A stretch of DNA of 64,000 nucleotides, from positions 72,624,797-72,688,796 of the forward strand of contig NC_090386.1 in assembly GCF_036365525.1 (NCBI RefSeq), given 5' to 3'. Of this stretch, positions 5,401 through 64,000 are shown piece after piece; positions within the stretch are counted from its first letter, which is position 1, and each line of letters opens with the position of its first letter. Source of the stretch: Heterodontus francisci (taxonomy: Eukaryota). The notes under the pieces were generated by a model that saw only the letters and a program-made list of their open reading frames with translations, made no database searches and was not told the DNA's origin. Made by a program: the position numbers and the translations under genes.

Positions 5401-6132
5401 TATATGATTTAAGAAGGAGGGTTGAAGGGCATCTTAATTACATTTTAAGCACTTTTAGTGTTGCTTTATTTATTGTGAAAGGCTAAGGACTTGATCTGTT
5501 GAAAGCGTCAAACTGTCCTTATAATACTGAGCAGCTGTCATTTTCAAGTGGTTCAGATTGTTAACTGATAAGTACTCAATAAAACAGAACAGGTTTAATA
5601 TTCACAGGCATTTCGACATTACCTCTACTAGTAGCCATAATTTGATTTACTGAAGAACTGCTTAACTGAGGAGTTTAACTTGCAGTCTGAGCACACAAAC
5701 ATGTACACATGATGGTACGATCTCGAAGGCCATATCAGCCTCTCATTGGAACCTTCACTCAGGCGCTGATCATTGTCACCTAAAATACTCTAACAGATTT
5801 CTAGGTGATAAGTGACACATGACAAGCTGCTGAAAGTGCGAGCTGATAATACAGAGAGGGGAGCAGAGCATCTGGGATCTGAATGAACAGGACAAGTAAC
5901 CGTGTACCTCCTCAGCTGATCAGATTGAAAGATTGTGCAAGGATTGAGAAGGAAGTGTAAATCTGAGTGGCTGTATTCAATGTAAAATTAGGTGCAGAAA
6001 AATAAATTAGGAGAGGGAAAGGAAGATTAAATTAAAAGAGAGAGGAAAAAGAAACATAAAGGAAAAGTAGAAAAATATAAAAGTAAAAATTTTAAAAATT
6101 GTAAAAATCTGCAACAGCAATCAATACTGAAG

Positions 6133-7532: not shown

Positions 7533-7837
7533 TGACTGAGACTCCATACTTGCAATAGTATTTATTAAGGAAGATCTGAGATTGTGTGATGTGCTAGGTA
7601 ATCTCTGATATTAAGTCGTCGGGACACTATAACTGGCCCCAGTATCACTGTGTTGGATAAAAGAAAATCACATTGGGTTCAAGTTCCAGATTGACATTCA
7701 GTTGTTATTGGTGGCAAGTGCAAAAACCAAATTCATTGGCTTTTCAATACTTTTCTTTTTGTAGAAACTTACTGCATGCAAATTGGCTGCCACGTTCATC
7801 TACATAACAACTGTTGCTTCACTTCAAAGTAGTTATT

Positions 7838-8385
7838 GGCTGAATTTTACGAGCATGCCGCATTTCACGACAGCACGCTCTCATCTTGGCGGTCCGCTCA
7901 CGTGGATGCGCCGTCGCTGAGCCCCCGTGATATTTCGCACAGGGGCTCATTTAAATGGAGGGGACGGAGCGGTCGCCCCCCCCACCCCCCCAATGACGTA
8001 AAGCGGATGGCCGCTCTACCCCCACAATGACGTCCGGTGTCACCGCGCAGGCGCCAGTGCCATTTTTAAAGAGCTTCAAGCCCTTCGATCTCATTTCAAT
8101 AATTAAAGGTGCTGTTTCACCAGAACCTGCTGAACACTTTTATTTCAACTTAGATGCCCCTCTCCCACACCCACCCCCCACACTGAGTCCTCATGTATTG
8201 CAGTGGCATATCCCCCAAAAAAGCACCGCTTGACGGTGGGGCGGGGGCGCCTCATCGAGGCTTCACCGCTGCCGGTAAAATGTGGCAAGTCCTTCTTGCC
8301 ATTGGGGGTCGTTGCAGGACGCTCCCGCAAGTATTTTATGGGCCCCCCCCCCGCCCCCACGACCCCGGACGTCGAGGGTCTGGTA
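7838..8385. mobile_element. Harbinger-type MITE (right TIR lost) inserted into a Deu-SINE tail spanning ~7765-8452
   Basis: Left TIR GGCTGAATTTTA, CpG-rich body, motifs GGCTCATTTAAAT and GCCATTTTTAAAG shared with the 33769 MITE; SINE sequence resumes at ~8386. Confidence 0.7.
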
Positions 8386-43434: not shown

Positions 43435-46143
43435 CTTTCTTTCTTTCTTTGGCCTCCTTGTCTTGAGAGACAATGGGTAAGCGCCTAGAAGTGGTCAGTG
43501 GTTTGTGAAGCAGCGCCTGGAGTGGCTATAAAGGCCAATTGTAGAGTGACAGACTCTTCCACAGGCGCTGCAGATAAAATTGGCTGTCAGGGCTGTTTCG
43601 CAGTTGGCTCTCTCCTTGCGCTTCTGGCTTTCCTGCCAACTGCTAAGTCTCTTCGAATGCCCACTCTTTAGCCCCGCCTTTATGGCTGTCCGCCAGCTCT
43701 GGCGATCACTGGCAACTGACTCCCACGACTTGTGGTCAATGTCACAGGACTTCATGTCGTGTTTGCAGACGTCTTTAAAGCGGAGACATGGGCGGCTGGT
43801 GGGTCTGATACCAGTGACAAGCTCGCTGTACAATGCGTCCATGGGGATCCTGCCATCTTCCATGCGGCTCACATGGCCAAGCCATCTCAAGCGCCGTTGG
43901 CTCAGTAGGGTGTATATGCTGGGGATGTTGGCCGCCTTGAGGACATCTGCGTTGGAGATACTGCCCTGCCACCTGATGCCAAGGATTCTCCGGAGGCAGC
44001 GAGATGGAATGAATTGAGACATTGCTCTTGGCTGGCATACGTTTTCCAGGCCTCGCTGCTGTCGAGCAAGGTACTGAGGACACAGGCTTAATACACTTGG
44101 ACTTTCGTGTTCCGTGTCAGTGCGTCATTTTTCCACAGTCTCTTGGCCAGTCTGGACATAGCAGCGGACGCCTTTCCCATGCGCTTGTTGATTTCTGCAT
44201 CGAGAGACAGGTTACTGGTGATAGTTGAGCCTAGGTAGGTGAACACTTGAACCACTTCCAGAGCGTGATCGCTGATATTGATAGATGGAGCATTTTTGAC
44301 GTCCTGTCCCATGATGTTCATTTTCTTGAGGCTGATGGTTAGGCCAAATTTGTTGCAGGCAGCCGCAGTCCTGTCGATGAGTCTCTGCAGACACTCTTCT
44401 GTGTGGGATGTTCATGCAGCATCGTCAGCAAAGAGGAGTTCCCTGATGAGGACCTTCCGTACTTTGGTCTTCGCTCCAAGACGGGCAAGGTTGAACAACC
44501 TGTCATCTGATCTTGTGTGGAGAAAAATTCCTTCGTCTGAAGACTTGAACGCATGTGAGAGCAGCAGGGAGAAGAAGATCCCAAACAGTGTAGGTGCGAG
44601 AACACAGCCCTGTTTCACGCCACTCAGGATAAGAAAGGGGTCTGATGAGGCACTGCTATGCTGAGTTGTGCCTTTCATATTGTCATGGAATGTGATGATG
44701 ATACTTAGTAGCTTTGGTGGACATCCGATCTTTGCTAGTAGTCTGAAGAGACCACGTCTGCTGACGAGGTCAAAGGCTTTGGTGAGATCTATGAAAGCAA
44801 CATAGAGGGGCATCTGTTGTTCATGGCATTTCTTCTGCAGCTGGCGAAGGGAGAACAGCATGTCAATGGTGGATCTCTCTGCTCGAAAGCCACACTGTGC
44901 CTCAGGGTTGACACGCTCAGCCAGCTTCTGGAGTCTGTTGAAAACGACTCGCACAAAGACTTTCCCCACTTTGCTGAGCAGGGAGATTCCACGGTAGTTG
45001 TTGCAGTCACCGCGGTCACCCTTGTTCTTATAAAGGGTGATAATATTGGCATCGCGCATATCCTGTGGTACTGCTCCCTCGTCCCAGCACAGGCAAAGCA
45101 GTTCGTAGAGTGCTGAGAGTATAGCAGGCTTGGCACTCTTGATTATTTCAGGGGTAATGCCGTCCTTCCCAGGGGCATTTCCACTGGCTAGAGAATCAAT
45201 GGCATTACTGAGTTTCGATTTTGTTGGCTGTTCGGCCAGCTCATCCATGACTGGCAGAGACTGGGCTGCATTGAGGGTGGTCTCAGTGGCAACATTTTCC
45301 CTGGAGTACAATTCTAGGTAGTGCTGCACCCAGCAGTCCATTTGCTTGCGTTGGTCAGTGATTGTGTCCCCTGATTTAGATTTGAGGGGGGCGATCTTCT
45401 TGATGTTTGGCCCAAAAGCTCTCTTAATGCCATCATACATTCCTCTGATGTTTCTGGTGTCTGAGGCCAGCTGAATATGACTGCATAGGTGTTGCCAGTA
45501 GTCATTAGCACAGCGCCTGGCTGTTCTTTGTGCAGCGCTTCTGGATACTTTAAGTACTACAGATGTTAACTCATGAGGGGCTTTCTGATAGTTCAACAGT
45601 GCAATGCGCTTAGCAGCTATGACAGGTTCCAGCTGTTCAAAGTGAGATTGAAACCAGTCTGTATTCTGCTTCTCACATTTGCCATAGGTGGTCATTGCTG
45701 AGTCATAGGTGGCGTCTCTGATGTGGGCCCAATTGGTCTCTGCATCCCCTGTGGGAGTGTTTTGAAGGGCTTTTTCAAGTGAATTTAGAAACTTATGTAA
45801 CAGCTGTGGATAAGAAATTCTGTTAGTGTTGATGCGCGGGCGTCCCTCCTGCTTGGAGTGATGTAGCTTCTTTGGTTTGAGTCTAACTTTTCTGCACACC
45901 AGGGAGTGGTCGGTGTCGCAGTCTGCACTGTGGAAGCTGCGTGTGATTTGGACACTGTTTTTCCGAGGCTCGCCTTGTGATGATGAGGTCCAGCTGGTGC
46001 CAACGACGTGATCTTGGGTGCCTCCATGAAACATGGTGACAGGGTTTAGTATAAAAGAACGTGTTGGTGATGCAGAGGTTGAGATCGGTACATAACTCCA
46101 GCAGTCTCTGTCCAGTCTCATTCATCCTTCCAATGCCATAGCA
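43435..46143 (-). mobile_element. RTE LINE, ~2.7 kb, 5'-truncated within the endonuclease; 569-aa open stretch
   Basis: NTFF..SWRHPRSRRWHQLD, DTDHSLV, NNYRGISLL, QCGFR, FIDLTKAFD, GVKQGCVLAPTLF, LFADD; (AAAG)n tail. Confidence 0.95.
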
Positions 46144-48394
46144 TATTATGAACATTTTATTGTGCCTGTACTATGCTCATGTGTGTGCTATTTTTGTGCA
46201 GGTGTTAAGAGGATGTGGTACAACCACAGTAAGTGGTCATACATGAAACTGGTCAATTGGATTTGCAACTCAGGTACAAATTTTTATGCACTATATTAAT
46301 TATGGATAGTGGCATAATTTACTCAGATTTTTAAGAACATTAATACAAAACATAAAATGTCAAATTGTTTTTCTTTTATGTGCAATTATATAATGGCAAT
46401 TCCAGGAATTTGCACTCCCATGTAGAGCTTTGACTGCTGGGAACACACATCAGGAATTCAGGCACATGGACCCCAAACCTTCATCAATTAAAATTAATGG
46501 ACAAAAAAGTGTGCGTATGCATGTGTGAGGAAGGGGGTGGTTTGATACATAATTACAGACATGCAATCTCAGCATTTCCACATTGAAGGTCGGCCTAGAT
46601 TTTATGTACAAGACTCCAGAATGGGACTCGAACTCACAACCTTCTGATTCTGTGACAAGAGTGAGCTCACACCCTTTTTTCCAATTCATTTTACAAAATT
46701 ATTTTCTATTTGCATCAGTTTGCTGTAACTCCCATTTCCTTTCCTGTAATTTACTTCCTTTTTTTGACCATTAGGGTTATTATACTCATGTGAACGTTGC
46801 CAGTGCGTATGAACAGGCTATTTGCCACTGGGGCAACGTTATCAAGCCTGATTCAGCTCTCACTCCACATCCACATTTCAAATGATCTGTAGCTCAAAAT
46901 GCTGGCTGTTTTACCTTCTGTACTGCTATAGATGCACTGATGTAAGAGAGAAAACTAGATTACAAGCAGCATCTCAGAACTTGTAGAGTCAGTCACATAA
47001 TGCCTTTAGTTTCTTAATTAAAGGCTCAGATTTTGTCAGTAAATCTGTCTGATGTGCTCGTTACATTGTAAACAATAACAATTAATGTTTGTTAGAAAAT
47101 AAATGAACACAGACTAGGAGATGCAATGAGTTAACAATTTGGTCTTTCATTTCTGGGACCTGGCTTGAAACCAGCCCACAATGAGTGGACAGAAGTTCTT
47201 TCTCTTGGCTGGCTGTCAGGACTGTGTGCTAAAGGAACAACCTTCACAACTCTGAAGTCTCAATCAAAAGGCCTGTAAGGATGCCTGGCACAGAAAAAAG
47301 AAAAATCACATATCTGAGGTGCACCAAGTTGGAGCAAAGAAGAAACTTTATTTTGCACTCAACCAGGGAATGCTTGACTCTGACATCAGGTGTCCCAAGT
47401 GGAATAACATTCCTTTTCCCAACACTGGAATTCCACACAAGTACAAAGTGTCATAGTGCAAAAAAAAAGTGCTGCAACAGACTGTAGAGTTGATTTTATG
47501 ACCGTGGCATGATCATTGATTCGCATTGCGTGGGGACATGTTGACTGAGAAATTAGTTTGTGCAGTGCCCATTTATAAGGCGGGCAGGAAGCGTGTGCAT
47601 ATTTCTGTCTGAAACGGGCATTAAGCCTCTTTTTTGCAGACACAAGGGGCCTGGTGCCTGTTTGAGGCTCCCCTCTTGGAAGATTGCACTTGGAAACCAG
47701 GCTGAGGGATTGCCTGCTAGACTGCACCAAGAAGGTAAGTAACTTAGCTCCTCCCGACTGCACATTAGAACCACTCACCACAGCACCCAGCCCCGATCTT
47801 AACCATTCTGGCCCCCACTTCTCCTGGAACCCTGATCCTGGATCTGATCTCATTTACTTGAGGGTCACTGTGATACTAGCAGCACCCCCATTTTGAACTC
47901 CTCTTCACTGATGGGCTCCCATTGCTGCACTGGCTTGATTATAATGAGGTCAGAGGCCCACTATCTGTGGAGCTACAGGCCTCATCATTCAGGCACCCTT
48001 GAATTTCTGGGCTCTTGAGAGCTAAGGCACTTTATAAATGCATGTTTCTTTGCTTTTGGACCAGCTACTATTATTACATCCTCAACTTTAACCTCACTAA
48101 TAAAACTACCTTTCCATCAGTCTTACAGGGAATCTTGTGCTGCCAATTTCCAATTCTTGAGTCTTATGCATTTGAGGCAACTCCACTGTAACTTTCTCAG
48201 ATTCACTAAGGCCACCTCTTGTTTAAAAGAAGTCTTCCTGCCTGCCAGCCTTAAAAAAATCTGGTCAATTGACCACTGGATGCATAGGACTCATGGTCAG
48301 GGAGCCAGTACCAGAAGACCATCATAAAGGCACCTTAAATGCGGAGATGTTTTTCTCCCCCCATTAATCACACCTTGCTCCTCCCTAGCACACA

Positions 48395-48610
48395 AGGAAA
48401 ATACTGCACATGCTGGAAATCTGAAATAAAAACAGGAAATGCTGGAAATCCTCAGCAGGTCTGACAGCTTCAGTGGAGAGAGGAGCAGAGTTAATGTTTC
48501 AGGTCATTGATCTCCGACGAACTCTGAAGTTCATCGACGTAAAACGTTAACACTTTTTTTTTGCTCCACAGTTGCTGCGAGGTCTGCTGAGCATTTCCAG
48601 TTTTTATTTT
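48395..48610. mobile_element. Decayed Penelope-type fold-back terminal-repeat element
   Basis: Imperfect inverted arms homologous to 50881-51078; remnant AAAACGTTAAC. Confidence 0.7.
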
Positions 48611-50254
48611 CTCCTCTCTAGCTTGCGTTTCGTAGCAACTTTACTGAATTATGAATGAAGAAAATAATTTCAATATGTTTTTACATAAGGGCATATATTT
48701 AAGATACTAGTTAACTAAAATGGTCTAACTGCTCTGTTTATAATTACATTACTCGGCAGTTTTTAACCAATGATAAAATGCAACTGTTTCAAGTCAAGAT
48801 TCTAAATAAGTAAATTGGATTACTTTTTTTTTATACACTTGTTCCATTTCTTAATTTGTTGTTTGAACTGCTAAAAACAAGGTATTGCCAACTGGGGATC
48901 TTTACAGCTGACTCGCATTAAAAAAAATGCACATAAGAAGTCAGTAAAATAAAGATGTATTTTAGGAAACTTTGCTAAGCTGCCTACTGATTAACTGGCA
49001 TGTGTGTCAGACACAGGAATACTTAACACAAACAACTTATTTTAACTCCTTAAAAATGATTTTATGCTAAGTTGATATATTTAAACAAAATACTACTTGG
49101 AGTCCCAAACCCATTACCAAAATAACAGGAAGCAACACCGAACTATTTAGAAGAGGCAGCTTGTGGTTGCTATGGCAACATAATCTGGATGAGTTCATTT
49201 CCTAAGGAAAGACTCAGCTGTATCTTTGCCATTATTTCTGTTTTTTCAGTTGAACAACACTTTGGATTGTGTTCAGAAATGTGCTGAAGCCCTGTGATTG
49301 TTGATTGAGGCACATTAAATAATCCCTTTGTTGTAAAACTCCATTTGCAACGGCAGCAGCAATTGCATCATGCACAACACACAAGCATCCTTCATTCATT
49401 CTTTATTCTGAGATTTCTGAAAGCATTTCAGTTACATGGCACTTAACATTTCAAATCACAAGATCCATGGCCACAGAGTGAAACCAGAGTCAAATTCTGC
49501 TTTTATTACACAGAATTGCCTAGTTTTCGCTGGTGTGCTCAGGGATCTTATTCCACAATAATGTTTGAATGTAGGCCCATTGGTTTGTGTTGACGAAACA
49601 AGTCACCACATTTTTATTACACAGGATTAGGAGATTTTCTGGGATTGTTTTCATCAGCATTTTGCCTGATTGTTATTTATCTATCAAATAAAAGAATCTG
49701 GGTGAGGAGTAATGGCTTCCCTTTGAACTAAAATCGGTGGTTTCATCGTGCTGCATTTATGATTACATTTCTTGGCAGATTTTCATTAAAAGTTGATAAA
49801 AATCAATTGCTGTAAGTGAATATTCCACACAATAGATTGGCTCATGGGTGAAAAGGCACTTCCGATGGACTCTCTATTGGTTTTGGTGTAACCGAAGAAA
49901 GCGCAATGCTCAATCACTTGTGTTAAAACAAACCTGCACTCAATTAGCTAAATTTCCTGGCTCTGCTTTTAGCCTACTGAATAAGTGAACCGTGGTGGTG
50001 TTGAACAGGACATTGCTTAGACCCCAGTTGATTTTTGACTCCCATGATCCACAATTCATTTAAATAATGGTGACTAAAAAGAAAATCAGCCTGCCACTGC
50101 AATGAGAAATATGGGAATTGAAAATGGTGCAAGACTAATTAAAATTACACGTTCTGCATACTTACAGTATTCAAATTTTTAATAGGATAGCTACAAATTA
50201 AGGGTAAGCAAAAAGTTTGTCATTTAAAAATCCCCCTTTAATAGGGTATTTCTT

Positions 50255-51795
50255 GCTTTTTTTATTCATTCATGAGATGTGGGTGGCACTGGCTAGGCCA
50301 GCATTTAAAACCCTAATTGCCCTTGAGAAGGTGGTGGTGAGCTACCTTCTTAAACTGCTGCAGTCCATGTGAGGTAGGTACACTCACAGTGCTGTTAGGA
50401 AGTGAGTGCCAGGACTTTGACCCAGCGACAGTGAAGGAATGGCAATATAGTTCCAAGTCAGGATGGTGTGTGACTTGGAGGGGAACTTGTAGGTGGTGGC
50501 GTTCCCATGCATATGGTGCCCTTGTCCTTCTAGTTGCTTTAGGTCGTGGGTTTGGAAGGTGCTGTCTAAGGAGCCTTGGTGCATTGCTGCAGTGCATCTT
50601 GTAGATGGTACACACTGCTGCCACTGTGCGTCGGTGGTGAAGGGAGTGAATGTTTGTAGATGGGGTGCCAATCAAGCGGGCTGCTTTGTCCTGGATGGTG
50701 TCGAGCTTCTTGAGTGTTGTTGGAGCTGCACCCATCCAGGCAAGTGGAGAGTATTCCATCACAGTCCTGACTTGTGCCTTGTATATGGTGGACAGGCTTT
50801 GGGGAATCAGGAGTTGAGTTACTCGCTGCAGGATTCCTAGACTCTGACCTGCTCTTGCAGCCAGGGTATTTATATGGCTAATCTGGCAGCATCTGTGGAA
50901 AGAGAAGCAGAGTTAACGTTTCGGGTCAGTGACCCTTCTTCGGACCCTTCCGAAGAAGGGTCACTGACCCGAAACTTTAACTCTGTTTCTCTTTCCACAG
51001 AGGCTGCCAGACCTGCTGAGTGATTCCAGCATTTCTTGTTTTTATTTCAGATTTCCAGCATCCGCAGTATTTTGCTTTTATTTATATGGCTATTCCAGTT
51101 CAGTTTCTAGTCAATGGTACCCCCTAGGATGTTGATAGTGGGGGATTCAGTGATGGTAATGCCATTGAATGTCAAGGGGAGATGGTTATTGCAGATGGTC
51201 ATTGCCTGGCACTTGTATGGCGCGAATGTTACTTGCCACTTACCAGACCACGCCTGGATCTTGTGCAGGTCTTGCTGCATTTCTACACGGACTGTTTCAG
51301 TATCTGAAGAGTCACGAATTGTGTTGAACATTATGCAATTATGAGGATGCAAACATCCTCACTTCTGACTTTATGATTGAAGGAAGGTCATTGATGAAGC
51401 AGCTGAAGATGGTAGGGCCTAGGACACTACCGTGAGGAACTCCTGCAGTGATGTCCTGGAGCTGAGATAATTGACCTCCAACAACCACAACCATCTTCCT
51501 TTGCTCTAGATATGACTCCAACCAGCAGAGAGTTTTCCCCGATTCCCATTGACTTCAGTTTTGCTAGGGCTCCTTGATGCCCTACTCGGTCAAATGCTGC
51601 CTTGATGTCACCTCACTTTCACCTCACCTTTCGAGTTCAGCTCTTTTGTCCATGTTTGAACCAAGGCTGTAATGAGGTCAGGGGCTGAGTGGCCCTGGCA
51701 GAACCCAAAGTGAGCTTCACTGAGCAGGTTATTGCTAAGCAAGTGCCGCTTGATAGCGCTGTTGATGACACCTTCCATCACTTGACTGATGACAG
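50255..51795 (-). mobile_element. CR1-group LINE 3' part, interrupted at 50881-51078
   Basis: AGVPHGSVLGPTIFSCFINDL, WQVTFAPYKCQAM, MEYSPLAW..LDTIQDKAARLI, WHSLP. Confidence 0.85.
50881..51078. mobile_element. Penelope-type fold-back element with hammerhead-like cores on both strands
   Basis: 63-bp inverted arms 50882-50944 / 50949-51011 (60/63 identical), 4-nt loop; TSD TATTTATATGGCTA (50867-50880, 51079-51092); core CCGAAGA-A-GGGTC-ACT-GACCC-GAAAC. Confidence 0.85.
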
Positions 51796-51874
51796 ATTTA
51801 CCGAGACTAGTAATTTCTGGAAGAGAAACTGCAGCAAGAACCAACCACATCTTGCTGACAAAACACATACTCCA

Positions 51875-51976
51875 TAAATAAAAACAAGAAATGCTGTAAA
51901 TACTCAGCAGGTCTGGCAGCATCTGTGGAGAGAAACAGAGTCAATGTTTCAGGTCAGTGACCCTTCATCAGAACTC
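51875..51976 (-). mobile_element. Single Penelope-type terminal-repeat unit
   Basis: Homologous to the arms at 50881-51078. Confidence 0.8.
51938..51976 (-). ncRNA. Minimal type I hammerhead ribozyme motif
   Basis: Minus strand reads GAGUU-CUGAUGA-A-GGGUC-ACU-GACCU-GAAA-CA-UU-GACUC: stem I GAGUU/GACUC, canonical CUGANGA and GAAA, 5-bp stem II, minimal stem III. Confidence 0.65.
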
Positions 51977-52009
51977 CATAAACATGTGGAGAAACGATTC
52001 CAGCATTCC

Positions 52010-52067
52010 TAATTGTAAAAAAAAAAAGTTCATAAAAATACCTGATTTTCAACAGAATTATTTTATT
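52010..52067 (-). promoter_or_regulatory. Probable distal poly(A) site of SOGA1/MTCL2
   Basis: Minus-strand AATAAA (52067-52062), CA at 52044-52043, then a GU/U-rich tract GGTATTTTTATGAACTTTTTTTTT; lies at the end of a ~2-kb repeat-free AU-rich block. Confidence 0.6.
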
Positions 52068-54053
52068 AAGAAAACACATTTTACCAGTATAAGTTCTTGT
52101 ACTGTGAACTCCTTGAATTTTGCAACCGTTTCTTTACATGAGCAGAAATATCTATGGCTATAAAGCAGCTGCCTTCAAATTCTACTCCAAAATACCCGGA
52201 TTAAAAATTTACTTTCCTTTTTAAAGAATACTTCTTCAATGTTTTTCCAAGACATTAAAATAACATTAACCACAAACTTCACGAAGAGAATACAACAATT
52301 AATACATATTAAACAAATTGTAAAAACATTTTTTTGAAATTACAGCAAAATGTTAAATTAGTTCTAACTTGTTTCTGCAAACAAGCTTCATTTTGTTTAA
52401 AATTTACAGGCAGTTTAAATAATTTACCACAAATGTCTTGGAAATCACTTCAACAACAGCTTCGAATTAACCATACTGTTTGGTTCAATGTTGTTTCAAA
52501 GAGATGGCAGGGTTTAGGTACTGTGAACATGTGTGCAAGCAAAAACATGCAGGTGAAGTATTATGCTGTCATACAAAGACTGTTAAACTCTGGCATGGCC
52601 AGAATGACCTTTGGGTGGGTCTTTAATTGAATTTCAGGTACTATTTATAAAAATGCCAAAAAAATACAATAAAACCAATTATAGTAATGACTTGTCCACT
52701 TCACACACATTATTTGCCCTTTTGAGGTAAGCACAACTACAAACCAGAAGTCCTTACAAACTTTCTACTCAGTTTCTTATTTCAACATACACAAGGATAT
52801 TAAGCTGTTAAAATGGTCCCTATTGCAGATTAAAAGTCACAGTTTGAACTATACAGTTTCAAAAAAATACAAAATTTTGTGCATAGAATGTAAACTCAAA
52901 AATGTATAGAAGAGCATTTTGTAATATTTTAAATTCCCCAGTAAATGCTACACAAAAAATAATTGGTACATATTTCTATAATGGCTTCCAATTATTTAGT
53001 CTGAAAACAGTCCACCCAAAAGCCATTGTGTCTATGCCAAGGTCCTTTATCTCTCCTGCATTCTCTAATGCATAAACTAAGTACAAATACCTAGATATAT
53101 GTTTTTCTTCAGTTATTATACACAATTTATTTTCTATGAACAGTATAAATAATTAAAAGGCATTTTTACAAACATATGTAGAACTTTTATATTAAAAGGT
53201 CACCTAAAAACAAACATTTAAAAAACTAGTTCTACATTACAAAAATTAAAAAATACTAATGTTAAAAAAAACTTAAATATATCAAGAATTGAAAATGACC
53301 ATCAGATATTTTGGAGTTTAAATAGTTTTCATATATACACACGACAAAGACATAGAAAACGATGAAGCTTATAAAACTGATATACATTAATAACTTTTTA
53401 AGCATGAAAAGAGCAGGTAACTCAATATTGTCTCATTGCTTTGAGAAGAGCATTTGTACTACACTCTCTCGCATTTTAGTCACATAAATCACAGTTCTAT
53501 AATCCAACAATATTCTTGACTACATGCAGTCACTAGTCAATTAAAATATAATCTAAAACAGATACATAGTATATGCAAAATTAGTCAGAATGATTGGTAA
53601 AGATAGTTGGATTATTAACCCTGATTTAACCAGGTGAAATTATCTGAAAATGCAGTGGTTAACTGCCCTTTTTTCCTTAATGTAGAACCCATAGGTCCTT
53701 AAAATTTATCCAAAACTCTAAAATAAAGTTTGAATATAATGGAACCCTTCCCCATGTGAATGTGTGGAAAATTTTTTTTAAATGGATGCAGCAACATCCA
53801 ACTGAAACAATGGCTTTTGATTTATTAGAGAACATCTGTGAACAACTTATGAACAGTGGTTAAGTCCATGTTCTCCTCATGCATGATATTTTAAATATCT
53901 AATGTATTGACTGCAAGTAGACTAGATTATGCAGAGTCTCTCAAGTTATGTGAAATTACACATAATTAAATCACTTCTCTCAGAAGACTATGATGTAGAA
54001 AACAAACAGTGAAGGGTATGTTTACAAAAACAGTGAAGAGCACATTTACCACC

Positions 54054-54358
54054 AGAGTGCTGCAGTGGTTAGCATGGCAGCCTCACAGCTCCAGCGACCT
54101 GGGTTCGGTTCTGGGTATTGCCTGCGTGGGTTTCCACCGGGTGCTCTGGTTTCCTCCCACAGCCAAAGACTTGCAGGTTTATAGGTAAATTGTCCACTGT
54201 AAATTGCCCCTAGTGTAGGTAGGTGGTAGGAGAATTGAGGGAGGTAGGGAATATGGGAATAATGTAGGATTAGTATAAATGGGTGGTTGATAGTCAGCAC
54301 AGACTCGGTGGGCCAAAGGACCTGTTTCAGTGCTGTATCTCTTTATGACTCTATGACA
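54054..54358 (+). mobile_element. HE1 SINE with internal deletion
   Basis: GCAGTGGTTAGC..GGGTTCGGTTC head; tail CCTGTTTCAGTGCTGTATCTCT plus (ATGACTCT)-like end. Confidence 0.85.
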
Positions 54359-54379
54359 GTTATAGACATGCATTAAAAA

Positions 54380-57300
54380 AAATCTGGGCATTAATTACTT
54401 ACGCTGGAAGGTAGATAACTGAAACAGATATATTGGGGTGGGTAAGAGTGAGATGGAGACAGATTAGGATTGGAAGCATAATGAGAGACAGGCATATCGA
54501 AATGGAAAATGAAAGAGAAGCCAGATAAGGTAATGGAAATAGGTGTCAGATTGACATGGATAACGGCAAGTGCAGCCATACTGGAGGAGAAAGGAAATGG
54601 AAAGTGAATCAAGGAAGGGCCAGATTGGGAAGGATAATGATATAAGGATAGTCAAACTAGAAGGCAGCGTAGAAAGCATGTTAGGAGGGGAAAAGGGAGG
54701 AAGCAGAGACAGAAGCCTTGATATTAACTTGGGGCAGCAGTTGAGCAGGAAGAGGCCAAGGCAGGTGGCAAATCATCCTACCTGAGCAGCATGAGGCCTG
54801 GGAGATTTCAACTCCCTGGTCTCATCAACTAGCCAGAAGCAGCAGCTAATCTCCGGCTTTCAGGCAAGTCACAGGGAGGTACTTTGGGAGGGCCTCAAAT
54901 TTGGGGAGGGGTAGTGTCGGGGAGCCTAAACTTTCCATGTTAAACCTGGAGGAGCAATCCTGCTTCTCCTAGGCCACAAGAAAAGTCATAAAAAGAAAAA
55001 GCACTGACTTTTTGGCCCTGACTGCTCCTCCCATTAGTTTATCCTGATTGGAAGGCTTGTGGTTAAAATAGAAGTTGAACCCTGATGATGTCATTAGAAC
55101 CCAATCTGCATAGTTAAAGGATGAGACTGTCAATTTCCATTAGGTGTCCCTCTGTCTACTCAGAACAGGTTAAAATCAGAACCTGTGAGATGTCAGTGGG
55201 CAAGTCCCATGGGCAAATTTAACTACCTGCCGGTTTCCTCTAAATGGTTGAGGTTAGAATTGCTCCCAGACCAGTGGAGGTAAGTATCTAAGAAAGCCAG
55301 ATTGGGAATGTTAAAGGGAAACGGTGAAGACAAATTGGGAGAAGAAAGGAGAAAGGGAGCCCCAGGGAAAGAAGCAATGAGTCAGATTGGGAGATGTAAT
55401 GGAGAGCGCGCTTGGGGCAACATAGGGATAAAAATTTGCATTTATATAGTGCCTTTCATGGCCCCTGAATGTCCCAAAAAGTTTCAGAGGACAAAACACC
55501 TTTGACGTGTAATCATTGCTGTAAGGTATGGAAACATGAAGCCAATTTACACAGCAAGGTCCTACAAATAGCAATGAGATAAATTACTTTTTAGTGCTTT
55601 GATTGAGAGGCAGATGTGGGCAAGAACACAGGGAGAACCCTTGGGCAATTCCAAAAGAATGTCAAGATCATGTCCACCTGAGAGTGAAGTTGGAGTCTCA
55701 GTTTAACATCTTATCTGAAAGATGGCACATCTGATAATTCAGTGCAGTACGAAAGGAGCACTGAACTGTCAGCCTAGCTCTTGTGTTGATGTTTCTGGAA
55801 TGGAACTGGAATACACGACCTTCTGACTTGGTGAGAGTGCTACCACTGTGCCAAAGCTGACACCTGAAGAAAAAAAGAGAAAGGGAAATAGAAAAAATAG
55901 CACAGCAAGATAGACTGGTGGAAGTAAGCATTGTGGAGAGCCAGGGGAAGTCAAATTGGGAAGCAAACTAATTGGGGAGATGCAATTGCAAGAGAAGCCA
56001 GAATAAAGCAGATTGGGATGAGAAACTGGAATAATGAGCCAGATTGAGAGGGGTGGGCATAATGAAAAACTGGACAGAGAATTATAACAGCAAGGCAAGT
56101 CAGTAGGGGGCAGAGTGGGAGGAGTAATAGCAAGGGAAGACAGATTTAAAGAGGTCATGCAAAGGGAAGCCAGTGGAAGATGGATTGGTGGGAGTATGTA
56201 TCATGGAAAGCTGGGGGGAATAGACTGGTAGGATGGACATCATGGGGAGCCACAAAAGGTCACACTGAAAGGGGTAATGCTAAAGTGAGCCAGATTTGTA
56301 AGAGAAGGATCAAGAGAAAGCAGACTGAATGGAGTAAGCATCATGGGAATGCTAAAATGAGAGAGGCCATGACAAGAAGTCCCAGAGGGAGCTGGAATGG
56401 AAGGGATAGCAACAAGGAGGCCAAATTGGGTGGGGTAATTGGATGGACAAAGGAAAACAAATTGGGAATGGCAACGACAAAGGAAACCAGCAGAAAACAA
56501 AACTGGGAGGGGAAATAGTCAGGAAAGCTGGATTTGCTAGGTTAATAATAAGGAAGTCAATGGAAGAGGTAAGGGGAAGGAAAGCCATATTGGGTTGGGC
56601 AATGGAAGGGGAGCCAAATTGAAGAGGCCAAGATATGGAGAAAGAGTGAGTAGAGGTGACAGACTAGGAACCAGAGCTACATTGCAAGAAGTAATGGGAA
56701 GGAGGGCTAGGTAGAACAGGGAAATGGGAAGGATCGCCTGACTGCAAGGGTAGGAGAAACAAATTGGGAGGGAGGCAAGAGCCTAAAACCTCCGCTCAGT
56801 GAAGAACTCTCATTGGTTGGGTGGGGCAAGGGTTGCAATTCCATTCCACCAGGTTTCCACTCCTCTTAGTTTCCTCCTGATGCAGAAAAAGTACGTAGTT
56901 CTGCCTGCACAGTCACAACATCCAGCAGTTTAGAACTGCTTCTGCAGCTGTTTCAGGGCTACCCCAAGAATTCTGCCTGAAATGTCTCCAATGGGCCTAG
57001 CAGAACCTATGTCTGCTGAGAGCAGCTGTAGGTCCTATTCTGAGCCTACAGGGGAGAAAGCAATTGGCAAACAATCCCAGCAGGAAGCCACTCCTAGTTT
57101 CCTATGGTAAAGTGGAGCAGACACCTCTGTTGGTACAGAGTACCTATCCAAAAAGAATTAGTTGATTCCACTCCTGGTATTTGGGATCAGATCATGAGGG
57201 AGCCAAAGTGCCGGGTGGAAATCTTGCTCTGTTGCACTATTGCCAGGGTCCACGGAAGTTTTAGGCTGAGTTGCGCTGTCATAATGGGATAAAAAAAAAA

Positions 57301-57900
57301 ATGAAGCTGATGGAAAAAGTTTGCAATGAGGTGTGTGGAAGGGAGACAAATTACGAGGAGAAATGGGAAGCCAGATTGAGATAGACAATGGAAAAGATCC
57401 AAGGTTGGGAGTAACAAGATGGGAAGCCAAACAGAAAGGCAAGGGTAACAGAAGCTAGACTGGGTGGGGAAGTGAGCCAACTCAGTACATGAACTAGATT
57501 GGGAGAAGTAAGAGGAAGAAAGGCAAATGAGAGACAGATTGAGAAGGAAAATTGGCAGCGGAACTAAAACAGAAGGGCTATGGTAGAACACAAGAAAAAT
57601 GTGCTGGATGACAATGTGGAAGGGGCCAGGGTGGGGTGTGTGTGTGGGGGGGGGGGGCGGGGTAGAAAATTTAGCAAGGACAATAACAAAGGGAGTGAGG
57701 AGGATAGGGAGAAGAGACATGCACATTCAAACAAAGACTTAGAGTGACTGGGTAAATGGGAATGGATGCAAGAGGAAGACATAATAGGAGAGGCAGTCAG
57801 GAGACTGGATAGACTGAAAATGAGAAATCGACTGGGAAGGGAAGGAAAACAGAGATAGACTAGGAGAAATTAAAAGCTAAAAGGTTATGTTGAAAAGAAC
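54380..57900 (+). repeat. Purine-rich degenerate repeat tract with recurrent CA(G/A)ATTGGGA core
   Basis: Cores at 54621, 55298, 55331, 55383, 55952, 56009 and 57496, plus many variants. Confidence 0.55.
55430..55863 (-). mobile_element. Near full-length Deu-domain tRNA-derived SINE (SacSINE1-like)
   Basis: Minus-strand head GGTGTCAGCTTTGGCACAGTGGTAGCAC with a degenerate B box, Deu-like body, tail AAAGGCACTATATAAATGCAAA. Confidence 0.75.
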
Positions 57901-58609
57901 GATGGAAATGCAAACCAGTCTGGGAGGGCGCAAGATTAGAAGGGGTAATGAGGGGAGGGCAGTGGGCAGGGTGGGCCGCACATGGTGTGGCAGCAGGCTG
58001 AAGTATTTTCACGAGGACAGGAGGAGCATTCCTGCTTCTTCTGACTGCACAAAAATAAATGATGAGAAGGGCTTTGAGCAATTTTATGAATGAACACCGG
58101 TAGCTGCTTTATGGTCTACTGGCCAACCACTCACTGCATCAGGTGAGCACTGGGCATCTAATGGTAGGTAGTGGTGCACTCCCCCACCCAGACAGACAGT
58201 CAACTGCTGGCAGCTGGTTTTTCAGGTGAGAAATGGGCTGGCAGCAGCTGAAAATCATCCCTCGGCTGTGGCACCCATCTGTTACGACAATCAGGAAAAT
58301 GAAGCCCCCTCCCCCTCATTCAGATGGTTATACCGGGACTAGGCCTACTCCAGGCACAGGCCTATCTGGGATGCTGAGGAAATCCGTGCACTGCATAATG
58401 TGAGAGGTCATCTGATGCCACAAGCCTCTACCCCTTTTCTTTCATTTTCAGCATTCTGCAGGTATAATTTCCCTCCTAATTTAACAATGCTGAAATTCAG
58501 CATTCTATACTATCTATTCAAAGCAGTGTGCAATAATCTGCTTCAGAATTTATTTTTTAAGACTACATTCAGGGTAATACAAAATGAGAGGAAAACAAAA
58601 CAGTAAAAT

Positions 58610-59225
58610 GGTCTGGAAATTCTAGTGTGCCCATAAACAGCCAAACAATCCCACTAGTGAACACAGAGGTCTGAGGCACACGTTATAGTGTGCCTCAGAC
58701 CTCGTGATTGTCGAGACAGTGAGCTGTGGAGACCAAACGAGTGTTCTCAGGCAGCTCTTCAGCAAAGAGAATGCAGAGTGGTGGCCAGGAGTGACCCCCG
58801 TGGTTTTCATGTAGGGTACAGGGGAGCACTCCTGATCCTCCTGGTTCCACATACAGGTTAAGTATGTTTGAAACATTTACTTTTTTTAATTACAGCCTGC
58901 AGCAGTCGCTTTAAGATTTACCTATTAGGCCGCATACAGGCCTGGTTTTCCTGAACATAGCTGGCCCGACGCTGGCTGCGTTCAGGGCAACCCAAAATTG
59001 CAGAGGGGCTCTCAAACAGGCAGTCGGCCACTTATTTGAATAAGCAAAGTGTCTGACACCTGTTTTCGGTGTGGGTCCTTGCTGCCTTTTTTTTTTGCTT
59101 ACACCAATATGGCAGGGTGAACACTTCTGGCTCATTAAGTGTTTGCTTCATGGCCGCTATATTGTAGGCTTATGAGGCTGTTTAGCGCTTGAAAAGCAGG
59201 CGCTGTGCAGTCAAATTTCTAGATC
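58610..59225. mobile_element. Old MITE-like element
   Basis: Imperfect TIRs GGTCTGGAAATT / AATTTCTAGATC (10/12) and GC-richer body; TSD not clear. Confidence 0.4.
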
Positions 59226-60822
59226 ATAGTCTTCACTGGCCATCTTTTCCTCCAGCGGCCCAAAGTACTTTTATGCCAGTAATCTGATTATTGTACAACC
59301 TACAATGCAATTCATTTGGAACATACTTACAACCCACAATATACAGTGTGTCACAAAGCAACAACATGCGAAACAGCTCAGACATTGTAAATTATGAAAG
59401 TGAAGCTCAAGTGCTTTCTTTACATGAATTCAATTTTAAAAGGTGTTCCTGCTTTGTAACACACAGCTGACTGTTTCATTCTTTATCATATATAGAAAAC
59501 TGATTTCTTCTTTTTCAGTGTCGTGGTTTCCCTTTAAATGTTTTTCTTTTAAATGATGGAGTGCATCATTTGGAATAGTAATGAATGACTGGTCCTATCT
59601 GTGTACACGTAGGCCAGATGTAATGTGGGGATTTATTACACTACCACAATAAATTTATTACCCACCAGACAAAATGCTTTGTTACAAATGCAAAACAATG
59701 CTGAAAATGAGACAGAAAGCTAATCAATGGCCTGCAGCCTGCAACTTACAAATAGTTTCCAATCTGCAAAGCACTCTATTGAGCCAGGATTGCACCGATG
59801 TTTAATTAACACTTACAAGCACTGCTCCTTATAGAATGCATGCAGTTGCAAAGCAACCTGGAAAAGCTACTCACAAGTTGTCTCCCTTAAGACACCGAGC
59901 ATGTATGTGTTGCCGTGCAAAGAAAATTAAAGGAACCGTACATTCAAATGAACAGGCTGTGCAAAATGGAAAACAATTTAGAGGGGAAATTGCTTACAAG
60001 TCTCTTTCCTTAAAGGGAACCACCTTTAGCTTATAAAATTGCCTTGAGCAGTGGTACAAAACAGGTGTTATCGAACTGACTGTTATACTTACTCCCCAAT
60101 ATTCAGTCCCATTGACTTCAATAAAACTGAATATCAAGCAGGGAATCTAACAGGCAGCCCATGCAATACCACCCTGTTTAGCTTCCCCACCCAAGTCGAA
60201 TTTCATCCTCCATGCTCTCTGACTCACTGATAGCAGTGCCACAGGAGCTCTGTTTGTTCACATGTATGAAAATTATAATAAACCAAGTGTAGCTAAATTT
60301 AAGATGAATGGTAAGCGGAATCTCTCCATGCTTCCAAACGTGCAGTTTGAAATGTGTGTTGCAAGTATTTATTCCTTCTTAAATATATTTGTGGAGTGTG
60401 GCGATAGTGATGATAGTGCCCCAGACACATTTATAGATCACAAATGAGAGTCGGAAGAAAGCAGCACAGAGACGGGAGGACATGTTTGCCAGATGAAGTA
60501 GAGACTGTCAGATGTCATAATCTAGCTTAACAGTCTTGCTGTTGTATGAATATCTATGCACTGCTATTACAGAAATGACTCAACCATCTATGCAATATAA
60601 CCTAGATCACTCAGATTCTCTTGATAAAAGTCACTCAATAGTTTGCTTTCCCTCCACAGTTTGTACTTTGCAATTTACAGTGACCACAACAATAAAACCT
60701 GAACATCTTTTCTAAACGTCTCCAAGAATTTCACTTATGCTGTCAGATAAAGCGAAAGTTGCAGAGATTATTTTAGCACACAAAGTTGTCTCCTTGCTCC
60801 GGTACGTGGCACTGTTCACTAC

Positions 60823-60960
60823 TCAGCCTGATTTTTCATCTGACGTGTTGGGATCTGAAGGCAAAGAACGCGATTTACACTGCGATAATGAATGGCGAAC
60901 TGATGATCTGGACGGAAAGCAGGAGGTGAGTGACTGAGATGTACAATCACATGATGTTTC
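60823..60960 (-). CDS. SOGA1: SOGA1/MTCL2 last coding exon (ETSCDCTSQSLTSCFPSRSSVRHSLSQCKSRSLPSDPNTSDEKSG*)
   Basis: Acceptor TCTTGTGCAG| at 60961, phase 0 matching the upstream donor; CDC-x-x-QSLTSCF motif recalled from the SOGA1 C-terminus; TGA at 60825-60823. Not in the supplied ORF track. Confidence 0.88.
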   Translation of the reverse strand, partial: ETSCDCTSQSLTSCFPSRSSVRHSLSQCKSRSLPSDPNTSDEKSG

Positions 60961-62214
60961 CTGCACAAGAACATGAATGAAATTCAATGTCAATATTTAC
61001 ATGCTAAGTAAAACAAATCTTGCTCAATAGTTTTAGAATTGGGATAGAAATTTCTTAAATGTAAATTCAAATTGTAAACATAGAAACGACCATTGGGGAT
61101 GGCAGAATAAGCACTTTAACAAGATGACATGATTTTTCTACGGCTACTATTTTAGCAGAGGCACTAACCCATTTAAAATAAATGTGTTCTTGCTTGTATT
61201 AAACTAGTAGATAAACCCTGTACAAGAAATGCTAATATCACCCGCCATAACTTCATCAGAAAAAAAGTGGTGCTCATTATGATGAGGAATGTTAGTGCTG
61301 GGGAAAGGAATGCCTTCCATTTCAGGCATTCAGTGTCAGCATCATACATCTCCAGGTGAGAAACAGCCCCCACTCTGCTTCTACAACATACCTCAACCAT
61401 GGAAGAATACATCCCAGAACTGTGACTTTTCCGTACCCCACCGCCCCCTGCCACACCAGCCATCCCATGTTCTCTCGGTGATATAGTCAATTAGCTGATA
61501 TAGGGACAATTTCTCTGTTATAGTCTCATAGTCCATTTGGAATGGAATTCAGATCACCCAAACTCATAAGATTGACTCATTGCCCATAATATTCTTACAG
61601 TCATCAGACAGAGGAGCCTTTCGTCACATCAGTTTGGGCTTAATTTCTACCCAAGCTCCAGAGGGGAGAGGGCACCAATCTACCACAATATAAAATTAAA
61701 TTCTGTGAGACGAGGTTCCCAGTAATGGGATTACAGAGATCATTGTCTCTGAATCACAGAGCTCCTGATTTTCTCCATTAGATCCACACTTGTGAGCAAG
61801 GTTCCACCTCTGTAGCTTTGACTCGCTAAATTTGCCCTTTAATGTTTTTACCCCTCCCAAACTGGTTTGAATTTCCATTGTTCCATTCAATATAGCACTA
61901 TTAGCTTTTCATTTAATCTGTATAGTAACAAACATGCAGTTTGTTTACAACCTTTATGCATTAAAATATATATGCAGATAGCTTATTTTACTTGTAGGTA
62001 ATAGCAAATTAAAATTGATGTCTTGACATTTATAAATCTCAAAAGTACTGATTGGCTAGCTCTCTAAAAGAGCTGGCACAGGCCTCCTTCTATGCTGTGA
62101 CAGTCTATGATTTTATACTAGTCCAGAAATCTCATATTAACATTAGTTGTAGAGAGTTTCAAAATAATTTAATGACATATTTTAATGAGATGGTACTCCT
62201 ACTAAAGCAGTTAC

Positions 62215-63664
62215 CTCAAGTAGACCAGAAGTTCCACAAGCATCCCGGGTGTCTGGATCTTTAGCTCCCTGGGCTGGGCAGGATGTTGCTTTTTGGTCCT
62301 CCTTGTTCAGTTGCTTGGGAAGTCTTTTGTTTACAATTCGGCAAACACTGTCTCCCTGTGTATGGCCTGGTGGAGCAGACAAATCTGTTTTTCTGACACT
62401 TTCTTCAGACACTGGATCTTTTAATGGTTTGTCAGCTCCATTTGGTGGACTCTGGGATCTGCCACACACATTCCTAAAAAACTCCTGAACAATCCCATAT
62501 CTTGAAGTATCGCCTTTTGTTTTTGTTTCATGTTGGCTTGATTTCCAAACTGAGTCGACACTTCCAGATGTGTGCTCAACAACATTAAACAAACTGGACA
62601 GTCCATCATTGATTGAACTAAGCACTGGACTATCCCTTGTAGTAGTTGACCTAGCCCAAGCTGACTCATTTTGTCCTCGATGAGACATAGCCCAAGGACT
62701 TCGCTCTCTTGTATGATCTATTTTTGATGAGCTTCTTCTCTGCAACTTTGGTGAACCATATTTGGGTGAACAGCAAGGACGCTCAAATTTAGTCGGCACC
62801 TTTTCCAAAGATGAAGAGAGTTGTTTACTACGGGAACTCTGGGTTGGCATCAGTAAGGAGCCTCTCGATGCCCATGACCGGTGCAGACTACTAGAGATTG
62901 ATCTTGGACTTTCAGTCTGCAGCCCAACACTAATACTTCGGGTAGTCTGAGTACCCACACTAACAACTCCAACTGTCTGGCTTGCAGTATTAACCTTCCT
63001 TTCCAATGAACTTGTACAAATAACATTTCTGACACAATTGGCTACCTCTTTCATGTCATCACTCATGTTACCTGATATCTGCAGATCATGGAGGGCAGAT
63101 GGAAACCCAGCGGTAGCAGCAGTAGCAGAAACAGGATGTTCTCCAGTGCCACTTTCCAGCAGATCCCGGTGCTTGGAAAGATTATTAAACCACTTGTTAC
63201 ACATGTTCTCTGAATGGAGCTCTGAATCCCCAGTTTGTTTGGGTTTCGCCATGGTGAACAAGAAGCCTGGTTCAATCATAATCTTTCCTTCATTGTTTTG
63301 AACCAAAGAACCATCCATCCTGCGCACTACTGGTGGACTGTAGTAAATCCGAATGCCAGTTCTGTCTGGTGCTGTGTAACTCCTCTGTATTTGTTTTGTG
63401 TTGAGATGTGGGTTAACTAGATTCGCTGCCATGGTGAAGTCCCAAGATGAAATTACAGGTACTTCCACATTTGACTGCTCAATTAATGTGCTTTCTGTCT
63501 TCTCACGTAACAATTCACCATCATTATTCATGTGCTTCCAATTTTTCTTGTTCAGCTCCTCAAGATCCTTTAAACTATTTGGCAAGGGTGCAGAGGTGGG
63601 AGGTATATATGGAGATGTATCCAACAAGCTCTCAAACTCAGACATGGAAGAAACTGATTTGGCC
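62215..63664 (-). CDS. SOGA1: SOGA1/MTCL2 (microtubule cross-linking factor 2) penultimate coding exon
   Basis: Acceptor TTATTTTTAG|GGCC at 63665 gives AKSVSSMSEFESLLD. Motifs GIRIYYSPPV, GKIMIEPGFLF, SGNMSDDMKE, RPCCSPKYGSPKLQRR, SAWARSTTTRDSPV, YGIVQEFFRNVCGR fit SOGA1 rather than MTCL1. Donor GAG|GTAACT at 62215. Confidence 0.92.
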
Positions 63665-64000
63665 CTAAAAATAATGCATTTGAAAATGAGTTATTTTTCC
63701 CCTTTGTGAAATATAAATGGGCAAAGGCCACATCACCCACTGGAACAAGCTAGATTGTCATCCCTACTTATTTTCTAGTTGGGATGGTAAAGCTTTCACC
63801 TAACGTTTTAGTATACCAGGAGAGTTCAGACATTTACAGCTTTGGGAAAATGCAAATCCACTGCCTCAATTACTGAGGCGCTTCTTGGCCAATGATCAAT
63901 CATGGATCACAAATTGTTCCGTTCTCATTGAGGGGAAATGCCGTGTGCATCTGGGGAGTAGAGAACCAATTACAGGGAGAAGCAAATCTCATCTATATCT

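What the first reader, a model, noticed from the sequence alone, without database searches (positions are those of the whole stretch)
51938..52067. Foldable hammerhead ribozyme on the sense strand ~70 nt downstream of the predicted SOGA1 poly(A) site
Seen: the minus strand has AATAAA (52067-52062), CA (52044-43) and a U-rich tract, then GAGUU-CUGAUGA-A-GGGUC-ACU-GACCU-GAAA-CA-UU-GACUC at 51976-51938. This has an intact CUGAUGA/GAAA core and paired stems I and II. Established: Penelope-like elements carry minimal type I hammerheads with a tiny stem III, thought to cleave as dimers via a palindrome, and an extra A after A9 is a known natural core variant. Inference: a retroelement-derived ribozyme here could cut nascent read-through RNA and aid termination or 3'-end choice, i.e. 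a co-opted self-cleaving terminator. Caveats: the ACGU palindrome of sister copies has decayed to ACAU here, and the family is abundant (3 copies in 4 kb), so the position may be chance.
Basis: partly seen in the sequence, partly recalled or inferred. Interest (0 to 1): 0.7.

Follow-up and report, generated by a model that had tools for sequence, protein, structure and literature searches.

The report
Decayed Penelope ribozyme stub behind gene
This is a 94-base scrap of a very abundant jumping gene (Penelope-like) that landed just past the likely end of a SOGA-family gene; its small self-cutting RNA motif has lost the pairing it would need to cut, so it is most likely an inert relic and not a transcription terminator.

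Summary
The sequence is as described, and the poly(A) site is probably real. RNA-type contigs from four studies stop at 52052-52091, while DNA contigs run on. The motif is the front of a 94-nt stub (51972-51879, minus strand) between 10-bp target-site duplications. It comes from the end of a Penelope-like element whose longer copies carry RT and GIY-YIG frames.

It is a minimal type I hammerhead, a known kind that is inactive as a monomer and weak as a dimer (PMC4209133). In this copy the ACGU dimer palindrome is ACAU. That is ordinary CpG decay: 11,163 ACGT, 3,065 ACAT and 2,893 ATGT copies. No stem III can form, and no same-strand partner lies within 1 kb.

About 98,000 copies are at least as intact, so about 33 of 20,000 genes would have a sense copy within 200 nt of their end by chance. 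In a relative's DNA, similarity stops at 52035 and no ribozyme piece was listed.

Verdict: an ordinary relic; co-option is not supported. This scan has noted the family many times before on other DNA.

The parts
52043..60822 (-). About 8.8-kb 3' UTR of a SOGA-family gene (stop codon of the probable last coding exon at 60825-60823)
   Evidence: frame and stop; SOGA Pfam hits upstream, same strand; X5 contigs 54322-60962 and 52083-54099 with no letter differences; X18 record 12 bridges 54055 to 55233. RNA status of the runs is the tool's guess.
52062..52067 (-). AATAAA poly(A) signal, the last of 7 between 60900 and 51800
   Evidence: inside the block that aligns in organism D DNA (52648-52035)
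52043..52044 (-). Predicted cleavage/polyadenylation site (CA)
   Evidence: Sequence; RNA-type contigs end at 52083 (X5), 52084 (X13), 52052 (X18), 52091 (X9), 52062 (X16); weak hint only
52017..52040 (-). U-rich downstream element
51973..51982 (-). Left copy of the 10-bp target-site duplication; it supplies 5 of the 6 bases of the stem I 5' strand, 3 of which also match the element (microhomology)
   Evidence: the 10-mer occurs exactly twice in the window
51879..51972 (-). 94-nt 5'-truncated stub of a Penelope-like element end (hammerhead plus tail)
51937..51977 (-). Decayed minimal type I hammerhead: stem I 6 bp, CUGAUGA, extra A, stem II 5 bp, GAAA, ACAU in place of the ACGU palindrome, AUU triplet, U-G pair next to the cut site
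51869..51878 (-). Right copy of the target-site duplication
50881..51083 (.). Sister insertion: inverted pair of the same element end, both arms with CCGAAGA core; forms a long hairpin; sits inside a LINE fragment
   Evidence: (z -13.8)
48392..48608 (.). More decayed sister inverted pair

Best explanation
A 94-nt truncated end of an abundant Penelope-like retrotransposon sits between target-site duplications 70 nt past the likely poly(A) site of a SOGA-family gene; it likely landed there by chance and likely no longer cuts RNA. Mechanism: the element's RT/GIY-YIG protein would have copied the short terminal module into an AT-rich site, duplicating 10 bp (footprint shown, enzymology inferred from PMC11167929). 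The methylated CpG of the ACGU palindrome then deaminated (change shown, cause inferred from the symmetric counts), and a second change put a U-G wobble beside the cut site. Read-through RNA would contain the motif briefly but could form stem III neither alone nor with an identical partner. The gene's 3' end would be made by the conserved AATAAA/CA/U-rich signal that predates the insertion.
For: TSD. Longer copies continue upstream into RT (RVT_1 E 1.2e-5) and GIY-YIG (E 0.0026 and 0.037) frames on the same strand, all below Pfam's curated cut-offs. Whole-genome exact counts: ACGT 11,163, ACAT 3,065, ATGT 2,893. The intact 37-mer occurs 2,915 times against 9 for this copy's 37-mer. In 100 blind stretches (982,861 bases): 61 hits, 24 with strict core, 16 with core and both stems, 9 also with ACGT; this gives about 33 (19-53) chance cases per 20,000 genes. 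The active homodimer is predicted 14.8 kcal/mol worse than two folded monomers, against 3.3-11.1 for 5 of 6 natural ACGU copies. Organism D's DNA contig aligns 52648-52035, then runs 368 letters with no listed piece on 51950-52034 and no joint. Literature: a single min-HHR showed no cleavage and dimers low activity (PMC4209133); the anole PLE hammerhead does not cut without the element's protein, and no RNA-seq ends were found at its site (PMC11167929).
Against: The core is letter-perfect, and stem I is 6 bp where the family has 4 (1 of 28 unbiased copies reaches 6). As an isolated 41-mer, stems I and II form with probability 0.92 and 0.98. One of 6 ACGU comparison copies scored worse than this one (23.7; broken stem II), so the energy comparison is only indicative. 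An efficient engineered hammerhead downstream of a poly(A) site does release pre-mRNA (PMC2288634), so the proposed mechanism is possible in principle. The empty site was not seen: the organism D table was cut (153 pieces and 11 loose ends not shown) and the flank itself does not align. Whether organism B or C has the stub is unknown. The chance estimate assumes uniform insertion and 20,000 genes (assumed, not counted). No cleavage assay and no true enrichment test were run.
Confidence: 0.88

Rival explanations
1. Incidental slow cutter: the stub is unselected but is occasionally cut in read-through RNA, by pairing in trans with an intact ACGU copy (3 of 4 stem III pairs) or with help from the element's own protein, without effect on the gene.
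For: Intact core, 6-bp stem I. Family sequence is very abundant in RNA-type contigs. The PLE hammerhead is protein-assisted in vitro (PMC11167929).
Against: Even intact dimers are slow (PMC4209133). RNA downstream of a poly(A) site is short-lived (general knowledge). The nearest same-strand copy is about 1 kb further on, has a CCGAAGA core and is predicted to be locked in a long hairpin with its inverted arm.
Confidence: 0.07
2. Co-opted self-cleaving terminator: the ribozyme cuts nascent RNA 100 nt past the poly(A) site, releases pre-mRNA from Pol II and aids termination, like beta-globin CoTC.
For: Sense orientation, 67 nt from a probably real poly(A) site. Host bases lengthen stem I. An engineered ribozyme plus a pause element mimics the beta-globin terminator (PMC2288634 section 5).
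Against: Stem III is impossible. Both substitutions within the motif weaken it. About 33 chance cases are expected. Conservation stops at 52035 in organism D. In the engineered case the run-on termination profile and 3' processing were unchanged by the ribozyme (PMC2288634).
Confidence: 0.03
3. Non-catalytic side effect: the stub adds a hairpin and a pyrimidine/U-rich stretch that slightly alters poly(A) site strength or Pol II pausing.
For: It lies within 200 nt of the site; stem II forms with probability 0.3-0.6 in context.
Against: The native U-rich element lies upstream of the stub. Organism C's RNA-type contigs end at the same signal, and organism D (which shares most of C's differences) seems to lack the stub.
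Confidence: 0.02

Closest known systems
Minimal hammerheads (min-HHR) of metazoan Penelope-like elements (Cervera & De la Pena 2014, PMC4209133; read parts 1-2 of 4 of the whole text)
   Same: [quoted passage not shown]
   Different: This copy has lost the palindrome. Stem II is 5 bp, against 7-8 bp in the Schistosoma example. Copy number (about 98,000 with core and stems) is far above the 4,000-9,000 reported there for coelacanth and Xenopus, counted by another method.
Poseidon element PAc of Anolis carolinensis (Frangieh et al. 2024, PMC11167929; passages and section 3 part 2)
   Same: RT followed by C-terminal GIY-YIG, hammerhead in the terminal repeat, two alternative 3' ends about 30 nt apart (here near +100 and +132 from C3), AT-rich targets.
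   Different: PAc's ORF starts at stem II; here the ATG in the core is closed by a stop after 4 codons. The clade of this element was not determined.
EN+ PLE insertion structure (Craig et al. 2021, PMC8557442; passages)
   Same: Heavy 5' truncation, adjacent inverted truncated copies, optional 30-40-bp tail.
   Different: Nothing material; this is a tail-less solo stub.
Clec2 3' UTR hammerhead of mammals and engineered RZ-MAZ4 terminator (review PMC6765202, passages; PMC2288634, section 5 and passages)
   Same: A hammerhead near a gene's 3' end that affects 3'-end fate.
   Different: Those ribozymes were shown to cleave. Clec2's cuts upstream of the poly(A) signal, and RZ-MAZ4 is artificial. 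This one lacks stem III and shows no conservation.

Membership tests
PLE minimal type I hammerhead | Core CUGANGA and GAAA around stem II | tested here: met
   51971-51965 and 51950-51947; C3, G5, A6, G8, A9 and GAAA are invariant among 29 aligned copies, but these were selected for the core, so this is circular
PLE minimal type I hammerhead | Stem I (4-5 bp) closing the ends, stem II with G10.1-type pair, one extra nucleotide after A9 | tested here: met
   Stem I 6 bp, stem II 5 bp, extra A at 51964
PLE minimal type I hammerhead | Palindromic 15.1-16.1 allowing a dimeric stem III | tested here: not met
   ACAU: only 2 of 4 pairs in a homodimer; the family majority is ACGU (15 of 28 CGTT)
PLE minimal type I hammerhead | Covariation in stems across the family | tested here: inconclusive
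   89.3% of cells paired; 2 of 9 pairs change on both sides; 72 of 500 shuffles reach the covariation score, 18 of 500 the compensatory cell count; slid controls much lower (0.002-0.085 against 0.160)
PLE minimal type I hammerhead | Self-cleavage after NUH | not testable with these tools
   No assay; contigs cannot show RNA ends
Rfam hammerhead families | Match to a hammerhead covariance model | tested here: not met
   0 gathering hits in the window; no hammerhead among 12 matches at E<=10. Intact sister-type motifs may also be missed by these models; not checked separately.
EN+ Penelope-like element | RT followed by GIY-YIG upstream of the terminal module, same strand | tested here: met
   In longer copies L008 (RVT_1), L024 and L013 (GIY-YIG), all weak and below curated cut-offs; 3 of 4 fragments sent gave these matches. 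The stub itself has no coding part.
EN+ Penelope-like element | 5' truncation, inverted pairs, optional tail | tested here: met
   of 64 hits, 24 long, 16 inverted arms, 12 solo starts at the hammerhead edge, 9 other, 3 cut by the stretch end
Non-LTR retrozyme | Tandem 150-400-nt repeats, each with a hammerhead, giving circular RNA (size range recalled) | tested here: not met
   Solo 94-nt TSD-flanked stub with no tandem copy
Co-opted ribozyme / CoTC-type terminator | Lies downstream of a used poly(A) site on the sense strand | tested here: met
   Weak hint from contig ends in four studies
Co-opted ribozyme / CoTC-type terminator | Conserved at the orthologous locus | tested here: inconclusive
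   Points against: organism D contig stops aligning at 52035 and runs on 368 letters unbroken. Tables were cut, and no DNA run of the closer organism B was listed.
Co-opted ribozyme / CoTC-type terminator | Position exceeds chance, or enrichment after poly(A) sites | tested here: not met
   About 33 (19-53) expected per 20,000 genes at this level of intactness; a real enrichment test needs annotation
Co-opted ribozyme / CoTC-type terminator | Cleavage of nascent RNA and effect on termination | not testable with these tools
   Needs a bench test

The most novel reading that the evidence does not exclude
With about 100,000 near-intact minimal hammerheads in this genome, a subset in sense orientation just past poly(A) sites, this one included, is cut in trans (heterodimer with intact copies, or help from the element's protein) and serves as a transposon-supplied co-transcriptional cleavage terminator.
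Probability: 0.03. Interest if true: 0.75.

Novelty: new member of a known kind. Interest (0 to 1): 0.12.

Why it matters
As found, little: it is one decayed copy among roughly 100,000. It serves as a calibration: in this genome a hammerhead-like motif near any gene feature is expected by chance. If the co-option reading held, it would be a natural retroelement-supplied ribozyme terminator for Pol II; my searches found none in print (open-access library only, listings seen). A by-product of some use is weak evidence for a conserved, roughly 8.8-kb 3' UTR and distal poly(A) site of a SOGA-family gene.

Tried and rejected
Rfam scans: no hammerhead; the mir-3202 and mir-350 matches at 50892-51002 are the inverted-pair hairpin, far below gathering score. 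Pfam on the 502-aa exon frame and the 199-aa LINE frame: 0 families. Pfam MIS13 (DSN1) search for synteny: nothing rang anywhere, so it is uninformative and the paralogue stays open. Sequencing runs: no holder on record as RNA and no RNA raw reads listed, so no poly(A) tails or cut ends could be seen; 8 of 24 listed runs were laid. Context folding does not distinguish this copy from ACGU copies. A pattern-based enrichment test (AATAAA upstream of the core) was considered and not run: the element's inverted arms carry their own AATAAA about 95 nt upstream, and true poly(A) sites are a tiny share of all hexamers. The idea that the AATAAA belongs to a decayed inverted arm was rejected: only a 14-nt resemblance at 52010-51997 remains, and the hexamer lies in the block that aligns in organism D. 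Lunse et al. (dimer cleavage paper) is not held; it is known here only through the review PMC6765202. bioRxiv 10.64898/2026.07.22.740005 (passages; supplements closed) reports retrozymes in one chondrichthyan; its supplements may describe this family. Look-ups of earlier findings by sequence and by poly(A) words returned nothing.

Full report
Observation. All quoted letters and coordinates are correct on the minus strand. The hexamer is at 52067-52062, the CA 17 nt later, the U-rich tract at 52040-52017, the core at 51971-51965, GAAA at 51950-51947 and the predicted cut after 51943. Rfam reports no hammerhead, either at gathering score in the window or among 12 matches at E<=10 in 48000-53000.

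The gene and its 3' end. SOGA (PF11365) and SOGA1-2-like_CC (PF14818) match above cut-off on the same contig and strand, about 42 and 6.5 kb beyond the window end; the genome has three such loci. The name SOGA1 for this one was not settled (one search was uninformative). A probable last coding exon stops at 60825-60823. Contigs of runs guessed to be RNA cover the region below it. X5 covers 54322-60962 in one record and 52083-54099 in another, with the break at a repeat; X18 bridges that break. Their lower ends cluster at 52083 (X5), 52084 (X13), 52052 (X18), 52091 (X9, kind unknown) and 52062 (X16). DNA run X1, possibly the source of the assembly, continues to 51951, and DNA run X17 of another organism aligns to 52035. 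The four RNA-type runs come from four studies and three organisms; X6 was fragmentary. This is a weak hint by the tool's own standard, and contigs give no strand, but it fits a roughly 8.8-kb 3' UTR ending at the predicted site.

What the motif is. A 10-bp direct repeat occurs exactly twice in the window, at 51982-51973 and 51878-51869, and encloses 94 nt. A genome search with this stretch gave 1,583 candidates, of which 40 were scored. Many of the 29 other fetched copies continue upstream into a shared sequence. Its frames match RVT_1 (E 1.2e-5) and GIY-YIG (E 0.0026, 0.037), below the curated cut-offs, in the order RT, endonuclease, hammerhead, tail (3 of 4 fragments). Of 64 family hits in blind stretches, 24 were long, 16 inverted arms, 12 solo stubs starting within -15 to +5 nt of C3, 9 other and 3 cut by a stretch end; 3' ends fall near +100 or +132. 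This matches the described structure of endonuclease-bearing Penelope-like elements (PMC8557442, passages; PMC11167929, passages and section 3 part 2) and their minimal hammerheads (PMC4209133, parts 1-2 of 4). The finding is a solo, tail-less stub. Five of the six bases of its stem I 5' strand lie in the duplicated host sequence; three of these also match the element.

Can it cut? Minimal hammerheads have no loop 3 and form stem III only between two molecules through a palindrome. A single motif showed no cleavage, and dimers showed low activity (PMC4209133; review PMC6765202, passages). The anole element's ribozyme did not cut without the element's protein, and no RNA-seq ends were found at its site (PMC11167929). 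Against natural ACGU copies, this stub has two changes next to the cut site: ACGU to ACAU, and A to G at position 1.1. A homodimer keeps 2 of 4 stem III pairs. The active dimer is predicted 14.8 kcal/mol above two folded monomers, against 3.3, 3.9, 6.5, 7.7 and 11.1 for five ACGU copies and 23.7 for a sixth with a broken stem II. The new CAUU pairs with the core in the predicted fold. In longer context stem I falls to 0.00-0.02, but most ACGU copies behave similarly. The nearest same-strand copy is about 1 kb further on, has a CCGAAGA core and is predicted to pair with its own inverted arm.

Is the decay ordinary? Whole-genome exact counts for one subfamily pattern are 11,163 with ACGT, 3,065 with ACAT and 2,893 with ATGT. 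The two products of CpG deamination are about equally common, although ATGT could still pair by wobble and ACAT cannot. This is what neutral decay after insertion predicts (inference). Covariation among 26 distinct copies was inconclusive.

Is the position special? I took 100 stretches of 10 kb at round coordinates on contigs C1-C32 (982,861 bases without N). They held 61 family hits: 24 with a strict core, 16 with core and both stems (as good as this copy or better) and 9 also with the palindrome. This scales to about 98,000 (56,000-159,000) copies at this copy's level. About 33 (19-53) of an assumed 20,000 genes would then have a sense copy starting within 200 nt after the poly(A) site, if insertion is uniform. 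One such case is unremarkable. In organism D, a DNA contig aligns from 52648 to 52035, through the hexamer and the CA, then runs on for 368 letters. No piece of it was listed on 51950-52034 and no joint was reported, whereas the own-species contig breaks inside the repeat. I infer that D lacks the stub. The tables were cut and the empty site was not seen, and nothing is known for organisms B and C.

Mechanism in principle. An efficient engineered hammerhead placed after a poly(A) site and before a pause element releases pre-mRNA and mimics the beta-globin terminator. It left the run-on profile and 3' processing unchanged (PMC2288634, section 5). The idea is therefore coherent but needs a fast monomeric ribozyme, which this is not. 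Searches for a natural transposon-derived hammerhead terminator found none in the listings. A search for hammerhead, Penelope and shark together listed one review.

Earlier notes. This scan holds 2,337 notes with the words hammerhead, Penelope and shark, and 62 on hammerheads in this genome. Several describe the same stubs, and the pile-up of 5' ends at the front of the motif that I counted before reading them. They read it as run-off copies of the start of the element's RNA; I did not test that reading.

Verdict. Shown: sequence, TSD, family, palindrome loss, copy counts. Weakly supported: the poly(A) site, and absence of the stub in a relative. Inferred: inactivity and chance position. It is an ordinary decayed member of a known kind; interest 0.12; co-option probability about 0.03.

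Noticed in passing
L031-L130 (blind genome stretches): 5' ends of solo stubs (12 of 64 hits) and the centres of many inverted pairs lie at the front edge of the hammerhead, not at its predicted cut site; 3' ends fall near +100 or +132 from C3.
   Followed up: partly
window 52035-54050: AT-rich distal 3' UTR that aligns in organisms B, C and D in blocks, at roughly 92-97% by substitutions, while much of 54300-59700 is poorly covered in organism C; may hold conserved regulatory elements.
   Followed up: no
window 50881-51083: Inverted pair with CCGAAGA (U4C) cores forming a near-perfect hairpin (z -13.8), inserted in a LINE fragment; 4 of 28 blind copies share this core.
   Followed up: partly
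window 51924-51879 (minus): The tail after the hammerhead reads as a pyrimidine tract, CAG and then an ATG with a frame open to the end of the element, resembling a splice acceptor before the element's start codon. Not tested.
   Followed up: no
window 52010-51984 (minus): Host flank just upstream of the stub has two short stretches (14 and about 13 nt) resembling parts of the element, one of them the inverted arm; chance, or a trace of an older insertion.
   Followed up: no
window 62182-63690 (minus): Large SOGA-family exon frame (502 aa stop to stop) without a Pfam match.
   Followed up: partly
window 50270-51840, 54053-54342, 44412-46121: Other repeats: a LINE fragment right behind the stub, a SINE-like repeat inside the 3' UTR, and a 569-aa RT-like frame; class names are recalled, not from a call.
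   Followed up: no
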